Source: a virus
Lineage: Duplodnaviria > Heunggongvirae > Uroviricota > Caudoviricetes
IMG/VR virus record: IMGVR_UViG_2718218139_000003
Length of the DNA: 37,100 nucleotides
Strand: one strand, 5' to 3'
The translations under genes were made by a program, and so were the position numbers. A model generated the notes under the pieces. It worked only from the letters and a program-made list of their open reading frames with translations. It ran no database searches and was not told where the DNA came from. Below, piece after piece: positions 3,083 to 3,529 of the stretch (position 1 is its first letter; every line of letters starts with the position of its first letter).

Positions 3083-3140
3083 GGTGCCCTCATTTGTGAG
3101 GGCACCAAAAAGAAAACCCGCAGTTTTTACGCTGCGGGTT
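3083..3140 (-). terminator. Two adjacent perfect hairpins with an intervening T-tract on the minus strand: rho-independent terminator / 3' structure of the hok mRNA
   Basis: ggtgccctca-tttg-tgagggcacc (3083-3106) and aacccgcag-tttttacg-ctgcgggtt (3115-3140); minus strand reads hairpin then TTTCTTTTT. Confidence 0.6.
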
Positions 3141-3226
3141 AGTTGTTCATGTCTGTGAGATAGGGTGCCGTTTCGACCAACCTTAGCAACCGATTGACGG
3201 GGGATTACTCCCCCGTCGCGGTTATC

Positions 3227-3367
3227 TTACTTATTACATAGTAAGAATGCCGCAATTTCCGTGCCAGCAAACCTGAATCGTAACTCGCACGGTGATGTGT
3301 GGAGGATCCAGATTATCGCTACCGCAGTTATGCAAAGTAACAGGGTTTTTAACGGAATTTGCGTCAT
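3227..3367 (-). CDS. hok: Hok/Gef-family type I toxin (46 aa small membrane peptide)
   Basis: Translation MTQIPLKTLLLCITAVAIIWILHTSPCELRFRFAGTEIAAFLLCNK; Hok family signatures (LCITxx hydrophobic helix, SPCELRxR, EIAAF); fully overlapped by a mok-like frame. Confidence 0.65.
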   Translation of the reverse strand: MTQIPLKTLLLCITAVAIIWILHTSPCELRFRFAGTEIAAFLLCNK

Positions 3368-3470
3368 AACGCTTGTCTCCTGAGAGGAGAGGCGCTAACC
3401 TTCTACTTGCGAAGGTAAGAAGTGTTAGGGCCTCGGTTAAACAGAAATGTTTTCCGGGGCCTTTCCACAT
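3234..3470 (-). CDS. mok: mok-like overlapping reading frame (modulator of hok translation)
   Basis: ATG at 3470, frame overlaps all of hok in a different frame as in R1 hok/mok; the IS600 end lies 17 bp upstream. Confidence 0.45.
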   Translation of the reverse strand: MWKGPGKHFCLTEALTLLTFASRRLAPLLSGDKRYDANSVKNPVTLHNCGSDNLDPPHITVRVTIQVCWHGNCGILTM

Positions 3471-3529
3471 CTGGCCTTCGGGTATTTGAGGTGTACTGGC
3501 AATAGCGGACACTACCATTTGTTCTTTTT

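What the first reader, a model, noticed from the sequence alone, without database searches (positions are those of the whole stretch)
3083..3486. hok/mok type I toxin locus cut off from its leader by an IS600 insertion
The highly structured noncoding-looking stretch resolves into a 46-aa Hok-family toxin nested in a mok-like frame, with 3' hairpins and a terminator. The IS600 end lies 17 bp upstream of the mok start, which would remove the native promoter and the region where the Sok antisense RNA is expected. This matches the known pattern of chromosomal hok loci inactivated by IS elements; the toxin is probably silent, but read-through from the IS could in principle drive it.
Basis: partly seen in the sequence, partly recalled or inferred. 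Interest (0 to 1): 0.5.

Follow-up and report, generated by a model that had tools for sequence, protein, structure and literature searches.

The report
IS600-truncated prophage hok/sok toxin remnant
This is a real but ordinary hok/sok toxin-antitoxin cassette carried by a decaying P2-type prophage. An IS600-bordered deletion has removed its promoter and the first 28 bases of its mRNA, while the antitoxin gene survives, so the toxin is most likely silent.

Summary
Window 3367-3227 (-) encodes a 46-aa Hok/Gef peptide (Pfam PF01848, 33.8 bits). It is overlapped by a 78-codon mok-like frame and followed by a conserved 3' stem-loop, an fbi-like box and a terminator. A 1264-bp IS600 ends at 3487.

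- **Not a simple insertion.** There is no 3-bp target duplication. Compared with an intact E. coli prophage (E110019), IS600 replaces 3,426 bp: the tail-sheath N-terminus, gpD, a DUF2971 gene, ogr, the hok promoter and the first 28 nt of the hok mRNA.
- **Most of the leader is kept.** The lost 28 nt carry the 'tac' box, which pairs with fbi in the intact RNA.
- **The sok gene is not removed.** Its predicted promoter (3373-3401, +) and terminator hairpin (3429-3461) lie inside the retained DNA, at positions homologous to R1 sok.

The locus is a cargo gene at the ogr-attachment-site end of P2-family prophages, and related copies occur in Stx phages. IS-disrupted hok loci are already known (K-12 hokA/IS150). 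The toxin is probably silent because it has no promoter and no tac, and Sok is still present; expression was not tested. Low interest.

The parts
3227..3367 (-). hok ORF: 46 aa plus stop, MTQIPLKTLLLCITAVAIIWILHTSPCELRFRFAGTEIAAFLLCNK
   Evidence: Pfam PF01848 at 33.8 bits, E 2.5e-8. BLASTP against R1 Hok gives E 3e-8. Aligned with R1 Hok and K-12 HokA. Identical to the annotated Hok/Gef protein WP_032140709.1 of E. coli E110019.
3234..3470 (-). mok-like overlapping frame: 78 codons plus stop, with an SD-like GAAGG at 3479-3475
   Evidence: The ATG and GAAGG are invariant in 14 homologs. The frame is open over the hok start in only 5 of those 14.
3373..3401 (+). predicted sok promoter: -35 TTGTCT (3373-3378), 17-nt spacer, -10 TAACCT (3396-3401)
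   Evidence: Read from the sequence. It lies at positions homologous to the R1 sok promoter TTGCGC-17-TATCCT, via the Rfam RF01794 alignments. AGGTTA and CAA on the sense strand are invariant in 14 homologs. It falls below the 9/12 threshold of the promoter scan, and so would the R1 sok promoter by hand count (7/12).
3408..3472 (+). predicted Sok antisense RNA of about 60-65 nt. The terminator hairpin is at 3429-3461, followed by TTT. The ends are inferred, not mapped.
   Evidence: MFE -28.5 kcal/mol, z -4.5. The hairpin is conserved in 10 distinct homologs, with the lower stem invariant and the upper stem changed but still paired.
3195..3218 (-). conserved 3' stem-loop (GACGGGGGAGUAAUCCCCCGUC), the counterpart of the stem-loop that ends the processed hok mRNA in R1
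   Evidence: This is helix 15: 97.6% of cells paired, and two pairs show changes on both sides (GC/AU in 6 sequences, AU/CG in 3).
3163..3181 (-). fbi-like 3' box (GUUGGUCGAAACGGCACCC), now without its 5' partner
   Evidence: In the intact relative, its MFE partner is mRNA nt 1-18. That helix is 90.6% paired in 13 homologs. Homology to the Stx-phage copies ends exactly after this box.
3106..3140 (-). intrinsic terminator of the hok mRNA: stem 3140-3115 plus a U-tract
3083..3106 (-). extra GC hairpin after the terminator. It is P2-prophage backbone and lies outside the conserved hok unit.
   Evidence: It is absent from the Stx-phage copies.
3487..4750 (-). IS600, 1264 bp. orfA is 4686-4384 and orfB is 4348-3530. 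Its flanks are ATT and GTG, so there is no target-site duplication.
4751..5212 (+). 3' remnant of the P2-type tail-sheath gene (the last 153 codons); this is the other edge of the deletion
   Evidence: blastn against the intact prophage: window 4751-7324 matches L001 2574-1. Annotated as Phage_sheath_1C in a sister assembly.

Best explanation
The stretch is a genuine hok/sok-family type I toxin-antitoxin cassette. It is carried as cargo between ogr and a com-methyltransferase pair at the end of a P2-family prophage integrated next to flk.

In intact relatives, the unit is predicted as follows.
- A promoter (TTGCCG-17-TAGATT) makes an mRNA of about 400 nt.
- Its first 18 nt (GGGUGCCUUUCGGCUGAU, the tac box) pair with a 3' box (fbi).
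- An antisense Sok RNA of about 60 nt is made from within the leader.

In this window, an IS600-bordered deletion of about 3.4 kb has removed the following.
- The N-terminal 241 codons of the tail sheath, plus gpD, a DUF2971 gene and ogr.
- The hok promoter.
- mRNA nt 1-28, including tac.

Everything from the mok-like SD onward is unchanged: the Sok target and sok gene, the hok SD and ORF, the 3' stem-loop, fbi and the terminator.

The expected consequences are inferred, not measured.
- hok has no promoter of its own.
- Any read-through RNA from the IS600 transposase, which runs in the same direction with no terminator in between, would lack tac. In R1, tac is needed to switch the mRNA into its translatable form.
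- Sok is probably still made and would pair with such RNA.

The toxin is therefore most likely silent, and the locus is a decaying remnant inside a decaying prophage.
For: **Hok family membership**
- Pfam hit and peptide alignments.

**Intact counterpart and deletion map**
- Annotation and sequence of E. coli E110019.
- Window 3486..664 matches L001 6001..8823, and window 4751..7324 matches L001 2574..1.
- The missing 3,426 bp are nowhere else in the window.
- There is no target-site duplication.

**5' end of the mRNA**
- The Rfam RF01794 model, whose position 1 is the GGGUGC 5' end, starts exactly at L001 5973. It scores 47.4 bits, E 1.6e-9.
- It scores 47.9 and 42.1 bits on the P88 and Stx-phage copies, and 87.2 bits on an R1-type plasmid.
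- In the window it scores only 20.8 bits, E 0.064, with its first stem falling inside IS600.

**End pairing and promoter**
- The MFE of the intact full-length RNA pairs nt 1-18 with the 3' box, z -8.7. That helix is 90.6% paired across 13 homologs.
- The promoter hexamers are conserved in P2-like and lambdoid contexts even where the upstream flanks are unrelated.

**sok retained**
-.

**Fixed junction**
- The same hok|IS600 junction occurs in five NCBI assemblies. In one of them the far side of IS600 joins a truncated integrase next to pdxB, which is a larger deletion.

**Experimental support from R1**
- Single substitutions in tac nt 4-6 abolish Hok toxicity, and the hok promoter and mok start are required (PMC9841398).

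**No new promoter at the junction**
- No promoter-like or terminator-like site lies on the - strand between 3650 and 3487.
Against: - No expression data exist for this locus; silence is inferred.
- The tac-fbi helix varies only by one-sided (wobble) changes, with no compensatory double changes. It is supported by conservation and thermodynamics, not by covariation.
- MFE folds of the 3'-processed RNA with and without the 28 nt give the same pairing around the mok-like SD. The R1-style open/closed switch could not be reproduced computationally here.
- The hok and sok promoters are weak consensus matches (8/12 and 7/12) and were not picked up by the scan.
- The mok frame is not conserved in this subfamily, so translation control may differ from R1.
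- This allele has Pro where all compared Hok peptides have Leu (S-P-C-E in place of S-L-C-E). Toxicity of this variant is untested.
Confidence: 0.8

Rival explanations
1. One reading: a simple IS600 insertion into the hok leader that separates hok from both its promoter and the sok gene. This would resemble K-12 hokA/IS150, where the displaced leader and sok lie on the other side of the IS.
For: IS600 directly abuts the leader in the same orientation. K-12 hokA shows exactly this layout, with IS150 inside mokA and the sokA pseudogene on the far side.
Against: The far side of IS600 is the middle of a tail-sheath gene, not the hok leader. There is no target duplication (ATT vs GTG). The missing segment is absent from the whole window. 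The sok promoter and hairpin lie on the retained side.
Confidence: 0.05
2. The truncated locus is still expressed. Read-through from the IS600 transposase promoter transcribes mok/hok, so toxin output becomes coupled to IS600 transcription and is held in check only by Sok.
For: The IS600 transposase genes and hok are co-oriented. orfB stops at 3530, and no terminator-like site lies before the hok leader. The mok-like SD and ATG, the hok SD and the ORF are all intact. The IS600 sequence GGCUGCUUAA at 3539-3530 weakly mimics the tac consensus in the Rfam alignment (E 0.064, consistent with chance).
Against: No outward promoter is detectable at the IS end. The best -35-like hexamer, TTGCCA at 3502-3497, has no -10 at 16-18 nt. 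tac is missing, and tac point mutants kill R1 hok expression (PMC9841398). Sok is retained. The arrangement is stably inherited in several assemblies, which argues against leaky toxicity.
Confidence: 0.1
3. The hok ORF of this allele was already non-toxic before truncation, because of the Leu-to-Pro change next to the conserved Cys. The IS event would then have had no phenotypic consequence.
For: Window/E110019 Hok reads TSPCEL, whereas the other five peptides compared read SLCE.
Against: The same allele sits in fully intact loci, with promoter, tac, sok and fbi, in at least 27 complete E. coli genomes at 99% identity or more. This suggests it is maintained. 42 of 45 diverse Hok homologs tested were toxic (bioRxiv 10.1101/2025.08.07.668861).
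Confidence: 0.1

Closest known systems
hok/mok/sok (parB) of plasmid R1
   Same: - A Hok/Gef peptide, 35% identical over 34 aa.
- A leader that matches the same Rfam model, RF01794.
- A GGGUGC-type 5' end that pairs with a 3' box.
- A sok promoter and terminator hairpin at homologous positions (TTGCGC-17-TATCCT in R1, TTGTCT-17-TAACCT here).
- A GC-rich 3' stem-loop followed by fbi and a terminator.
   Different: - Hok is 46 aa here, against 52 aa in R1.
- There is no AUG at the R1 mok start position. The only in-frame start is an invariant AUG about 50 nt further upstream, and the frame is not conserved among relatives.
- The locus is in a prophage, not a plasmid.
- Intact relatives score below the Rfam gathering threshold (47 vs 59 bits).
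- In the window, the promoter and tac are deleted.
E. coli K-12 hokA/mokA/sokA disrupted by IS150
   Same: A chromosomal hok locus cut on its 5' side by an IS3-family element a few tens of bp upstream of hok. The toxin ORF is left intact but is presumed silent. From my own knowledge: Pedersen and Gerdes 1999, Mol Microbiol 32:1090, reported IS-inactivated hokA, hokC and hokE in K-12.
   Different: - In K-12 the IS sits inside mokA, and sokA ends up on the far side of the IS as a pseudogene.
- Here the break is further upstream, between tac and the mok-like SD, so sok stays with hok.
- Here the IS also borders a 3.4-kb deletion rather than a clean insertion.
Hok/Gef cargo gene of P2-family phages and prophages (e.g. 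Escherichia phage P88, genus Xuanwuvirus; annotated 'MokW-like host killing')
   Same: The same position downstream of ogr at the prophage end, with 80-84% DNA identity across the whole unit. PGAP annotates the intact E. coli copies as 'Hok/Gef family protein'.
   Different: Those copies are intact. The window copy is truncated at the 5' end.
hokW/sokW of Stx2 prophage Sp5 (EHEC O157 Sakai)
   Same: [quoted passage not shown] Stx phages also carry a copy about 75% identical to this locus next to lom.
   Different: Sp5 HokW is a 51-aa HokC/D-like peptide that starts MKQQKAM, judged from the primers in PMC8621323. It belongs to a different Hok subfamily from the 46-aa peptide here.

Membership tests
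[quoted passage not shown] | Small hydrophobic Hok/Gef peptide (Pfam PF01848) with the conserved Cys and the E...AAF motif | tested here: met
   33.8 bits against a cut-off of 22. C27, E28, E37 and A39-A40-F41 are invariant in the alignment with R1 Hok and K-12 HokA. One deviation: Pro26 where the other peptides have Leu. NCBIfam HokA and Hok-family models hit only below their cut-offs (27.7 and 25.2 bits).
[quoted passage not shown] | hok mRNA leader with the family's conserved sequence and structure (Rfam RF01794) | tested here: inconclusive
   Intact relatives score 42-48 bits with E 1e-7 to 1e-9. That is significant but below the gathering score of 59. The window copy scores 20.8 bits, E 0.064, because the 5' part is replaced by IS600.
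[quoted passage not shown] | Long-range 5'-3' pairing (tac/fbi) that locks the full-length mRNA | tested here: not met
   It is met in the intact relative: an 18-bp helix in the MFE, z -8.7, 90.6% paired in 13 homologs. In the window the 5' partner is deleted and only fbi remains, at 3163-3181. This reflects truncation of this copy, not a failure of family membership.
[quoted passage not shown] | cis-encoded antisense Sok RNA with its own promoter, overlapping the leader | tested here: met
   This is a sequence-level prediction only. The promoter hexamers and the terminator hairpin lie at positions homologous to R1 sok. The hairpin has z -4.5 and is conserved. Transcription was not testable.
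[quoted passage not shown] | Overlapping mok reading frame that couples translation to hok | tested here: inconclusive
   The window has a 78-codon frame with an SD and ATG. Only 5 of 14 related loci keep a start-bearing frame open across the hok start.
[quoted passage not shown] | Toxicity of Hok and its neutralisation by Sok | not testable with these tools
   Needs cloning and induction assays.
IS600 (IS3 family) | 1264-bp element with orfA/orfB (HTH_Tnp_1 plus rve domains) and terminal inverted repeats TGAGGTG...CACCTCA | tested here: met
   100% identity over 1264 bp to copies annotated 'IS3-like element IS600 family transposase'. Domains; inverted repeats.
IS600 (IS3 family) | 3-bp target-site duplication, as expected for a simple insertion | tested here: not met
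   The copy at 3487-4750 is flanked by ATT and GTG. The second copy, at 28269-29532, does have a GTG/GTG duplication.
P2-family (Peduoviridae) prophage | P2-type late gene order (sheath, tube, gpE, tape measure, gpD, ogr) beside an attachment site | tested here: met
   Annotation of collinear intact prophages and 94-96% coverage of window 7000-31000 by such prophages. In the window gpD, ogr and the sheath N-terminus are deleted.

The most novel reading that the evidence does not exclude
The retained, apparently intact sok gene may not be debris. After its own toxin was silenced, it could persist as a stand-alone antitoxin that neutralises hok mRNAs of incoming or co-resident P2-like and Stx-phage relatives, acting as an 'anti-addiction' or cross-immunity module. 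Alternatively, IS600 read-through may make hok expression conditional on transposase transcription. Nothing here excludes either reading. The junction is stably inherited in several assemblies, and hok, sok and fbi carry no further mutations relative to an intact relative.
Probability: 0.06. Interest if true: 0.5.

Novelty: new member of a known kind. Interest (0 to 1): 0.15.

Why it matters
It matters little beyond correct annotation. The window adds one more example of a prophage-borne hok/sok cassette decaying through IS activity, in an IS600-rich E. coli/Shigella-type genome.

Two points may be useful.
- The break point falls between tac and the rest of the leader. This gives a natural 'tac-less, promoter-less, sok-plus' allele that could be compared with intact alleles in other strains.
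- In this 46-aa Hok subfamily the mok frame is not conserved. That is relevant to anyone extending the R1 translational-coupling model to prophage hok loci.

Tried and rejected
- **Inversion between the two IS600 copies.** The second copy, at 28269-29532, is inverted. I rejected this explanation because the missing 3.4 kb is not in the window and the second copy has its own GTG/GTG duplication.
- **Hybrid outward promoter at the IS600 end.** The scan found none. By eye, TTGCCA at 3502-3497 has no -10 at the right spacing.
- **Identity with the published hokW/sokW.** Rejected. Sp5 HokW is a different, 51-aa peptide (PMC8621323); 'MokW-like' is only an annotation label on phage copies.
- **Exact-match search for the hok|IS600 junction in GTDB species representatives.** It found nothing.
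- **Megablast of the junction against 5,426 complete RefSeq E. coli genomes.** No record spans it. The source organism therefore remains unnamed, although five NCBI assemblies carry the junction.
- **Reproducing an R1-style SD-opening switch by thermodynamic folding.** I folded the 3'-processed RNA with and without the lost 28 nt. The pairing around the mok-like SD was the same in both, so the translational consequence of losing tac rests on analogy with R1.
- **Consensus promoter scan.** At its 9/12 threshold it detects neither the hok nor the sok promoter. These rest on conservation and homology.
- **Covariation for tac/fbi.** Only one-sided changes were seen.

Full report
**1. What is in the sequence**

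On the minus strand, 3367-3227 encodes a 46-aa peptide, MTQIPLKTLLLCITAVAIIWILHTSPCELRFRFAGTEIAAFLLCNK.
- It matches Pfam HOK_GEF above the curated threshold: 33.8 bits against 22, E 2.5e-8.
- It aligns to the Hok of an R1-type plasmid at 35% identity over 34 residues, E 3e-8.
- It aligns to K-12 HokA with the conserved Cys, Glu and AAF positions kept.

Around it on the minus strand:
- A second frame starts at ATG 3470-3468, preceded by GAAGG. It runs 78 codons across the hok start to a stop at 3236-3234.
- Downstream lie a GC-rich stem-loop (3218-3195), an intrinsic terminator (stem 3140-3115 plus a U-tract) and one more hairpin at 3106-3083.
- The RNA folds much better than shuffled controls, z -7.0.

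Immediately 5' of the locus, 3487-4750 is a 1264-bp element with terminal inverted repeats. It has IS3-type orfA and orfB genes in the same orientation as hok. It is 100% identical to copies annotated as IS600.

**2. What the intact locus looks like**

The 651 bp between the IS and the downstream methyltransferase gene are at least 99% identical to loci in 27 complete E. coli genomes. More distant copies occur in over 1,200 genomes.

In E. coli E110019 the context is a P2-family prophage next to flk. The gene order is tape measure, gpE, tube, sheath, gpD-like, DUF2971, ogr, Hok/Gef, Com-family regulator, DNA methyltransferase, flk, yfcJ. Other strains have the same cassette after ogr at other integration sites. 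P2-like phages such as P88 carry it too. A copy about 75% identical sits next to lom in Stx phages.

A blastn of the window against the E110019 locus gives two matches.
- Window 3486..664 matches L001 6001..8823.
- Window 4751..7324 matches L001 2574..1.

IS600 therefore replaces L001 2575-6000, which is 3,426 bp. That segment holds:
- the first 241 codons of the tail-sheath gene;
- the gpD-like gene, the DUF2971 gene and ogr;
- the 72 bp between the ogr stop and the junction.

The segment is not elsewhere in the window. The IS flanks are ATT and GTG, so there is no 3-bp target duplication. A second, inverted IS600 copy at 28269-29532 does have a GTG/GTG duplication.

The same hok|IS600 junction is present in five NCBI assemblies. 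In one of them the far side of the IS instead abuts a truncated integrase next to pdxB. The hok-side junction is therefore the fixed one, and the far side has undergone different deletions. That pattern fits either IS-adjacent deletion or recombination between IS600 copies. This is not a clean insertion.

**3. What exactly was lost from the hok unit**

An alignment of 14 loci shows a conserved block. It begins with TTGCC(G/C), a 17-nt spacer and TAGATT (TACAGT or TAAATT in other copies). It continues through GGGTGCC... even where the upstream flanks are unrelated, as between P2-like and lambdoid phages. The block ends right after GGCACCC, about 350 nt downstream.

The Rfam model RF01794 is named 'sok'. 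In practice it describes the hok mRNA leader on the sense strand, from the GGGUGC 5' end to the hok AUG.
- It aligns from its position 1 at L001 5973 with 47.4 bits, E 1.6e-9.
- It scores 47.9 and 42.1 bits on the P88 and Stx-phage copies, and 87.2 bits on an R1-type plasmid.
- In the window it falls to 20.8 bits, E 0.064, and its first stem is forced into IS600 sequence.

The MFE structure of the intact full-length RNA (L001 5973-6380) closes the molecule with an 18-bp helix. That helix joins nt 1-18 to GUUGGUCGAAACGGCACCC, z -8.7. It is 90.6% paired in 13 homologs, although it varies only by wobble changes. This is the tac/fbi end-pairing that defines hok mRNAs, as summarised in PMC9841398.

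The junction falls after mRNA nt 28. The window has therefore lost the promoter and the whole tac partner, and it keeps fbi at 3163-3181 with nothing to pair with. Apart from one base in the terminator stem, the retained 404 bp are identical to the intact E110019 copy.

**4. sok is retained**

In the R1-type sequence, the sok promoter on the antisense strand is TTGCGC, 17 nt, TATCCT. The Sok terminator hairpin is the complement of the leader hairpin upstream of the mok SD.

The Rfam-model alignments place the window's AGACAA and AGGTTA on the sense strand at the homologous positions. On the + strand this gives the following.
- -35 TTGTCT at 3373-3378.
- A 17-nt spacer.
- -10 TAACCT at 3396-3401.
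- A start near 3408.
- A hairpin at 3429-3461, followed by TTT.

Further support:
- The predicted 65-nt RNA folds with z -4.5.
- The hairpin is conserved in 10 distinct homologs. Its lower stem is invariant, and its upper stem is changed but still paired.
- The -10 and the TTG of the -35 are invariant in all 14 loci.

All of this lies inside the retained DNA, 15-20 bp short of the IS. What distinguishes this case from K-12 hokA is the position of the break. In K-12, IS150 lies inside mokA and sokA is on the far side. Here the break lies upstream of sok.

**5. Likely consequence**

*Shown by sequence comparison.* The conserved hexamer pair that I take to be the hok promoter, and tac, are absent. 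sok, the mok-like SD and ATG, the hok SD and ORF, the 3' stem-loop, fbi and the terminator are present.

*Inferred.* hok is silent, for three reasons.
- No promoter-like site exists on the hok strand between the IS600 orfB stop and the leader. The only possible input is read-through from the transposase promoter.
- In R1, single substitutions at tac nt 4-6 abolish toxicity because they prevent the translatable conformation. The promoter and the mok start are also essential (PMC9841398).
- Sok would still target any such RNA.

I could not reproduce the conformational switch by MFE folding of the processed RNA with and without the 28 nt. The translational part of the argument therefore rests on analogy with R1.

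There are two further caveats.
- The mok-like frame is open across the hok start in only 5 of 14 relatives. Its ATG also lies about 50 nt upstream of the R1 mok position. Coupling in this subfamily may differ from R1.
- This allele has Pro26 where the other Hok peptides have Leu.

**6. Comparison with what is known, and verdict**

- Hok genes are known to be enriched in prophages (bioRxiv 10.1101/2025.08.07.668861).
- A different prophage hok, hokW/sokW of Sp5, has been shown to be a working type I system (PMC8621323).
- NCBI's PGAP pipeline already annotates the intact copies of this gene as Hok/Gef family protein.
- IS-disrupted hok loci are a textbook feature of E. coli K-12 (from my own knowledge, Pedersen and Gerdes 1999).

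- The event is a deletion junction, not a simple insertion.
- Only 28 nt of the leader, carrying tac, are lost.
- sok is retained.

Interest is low.

Noticed in passing
window 3022-3059 (- strand), upstream of the com-like gene at 2986-2783: Three GATCGAT repeats lie within 38 bp. The whole 37-kb window has only 4 copies. They overlap the only strong promoter-like site in the region (TCGATA-16-TATCAT with TG, 3039-3012). Downstream are a Com-family zinc-ribbon gene and an N6/N4 DNA methyltransferase gene. The layout recalls the Dam/GATC-controlled com-mom operon of phage Mu, but with a different methylase.
   Followed up: partly
window 28269-29532: A second, 100% identical IS600 copy lies in inverted orientation with a clean GTG/GTG target duplication. 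It interrupts the P2 gpA-like replication endonuclease gene. The prophage is therefore disabled at two or more places.
   Followed up: partly
window 664/665 (yfcJ, 1-822): Relative to E. coli E110019, 355 bp inside the yfcJ MFS-transporter gene are missing (L001 8824-9178). This leaves a 273-aa product in place of a 392-aa one. The same truncated protein is found in at least 24 contigs of public assemblies.
   Followed up: partly
L019 (GCA_003015365.1) 9487-11400: A sister assembly has the identical hok|IS600 junction. On the far side of IS600 it has a truncated integrase followed by pdxB. Nearly the whole prophage has been deleted there, leaving only hok-com-methylase next to flk.
   Followed up: partly
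Rfam RF01794 matches: L001 5973-6131 (+), L015 232-403 (+): The Rfam family named 'sok antitoxin' aligns to the sense strand of the hok mRNA leader, from the 5' tac box to the hok AUG. A hit therefore marks the hok leader and its strand, not the orientation of the Sok RNA.
   Followed up: yes
alignment A1, columns 87-195 (window 3470-3367 and homologs): In this 46-aa Hok subfamily the ATG at window 3470 is invariant. However, the frame it opens reaches the hok start in only 5 of 14 loci; the others hit a stop about 45 nt before hok or are frame-shifted. No AUG exists at the position of the R1 mok start. The predicted 5' tail of Sok is the most variable part of the unit.
   Followed up: partly
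window 3292-3290 (Hok codon 26): This allele, shared with E. coli E110019 and at least 27 genomes, has Pro in the otherwise invariant S-L-C-E motif next to the conserved cysteine.
   Followed up: no
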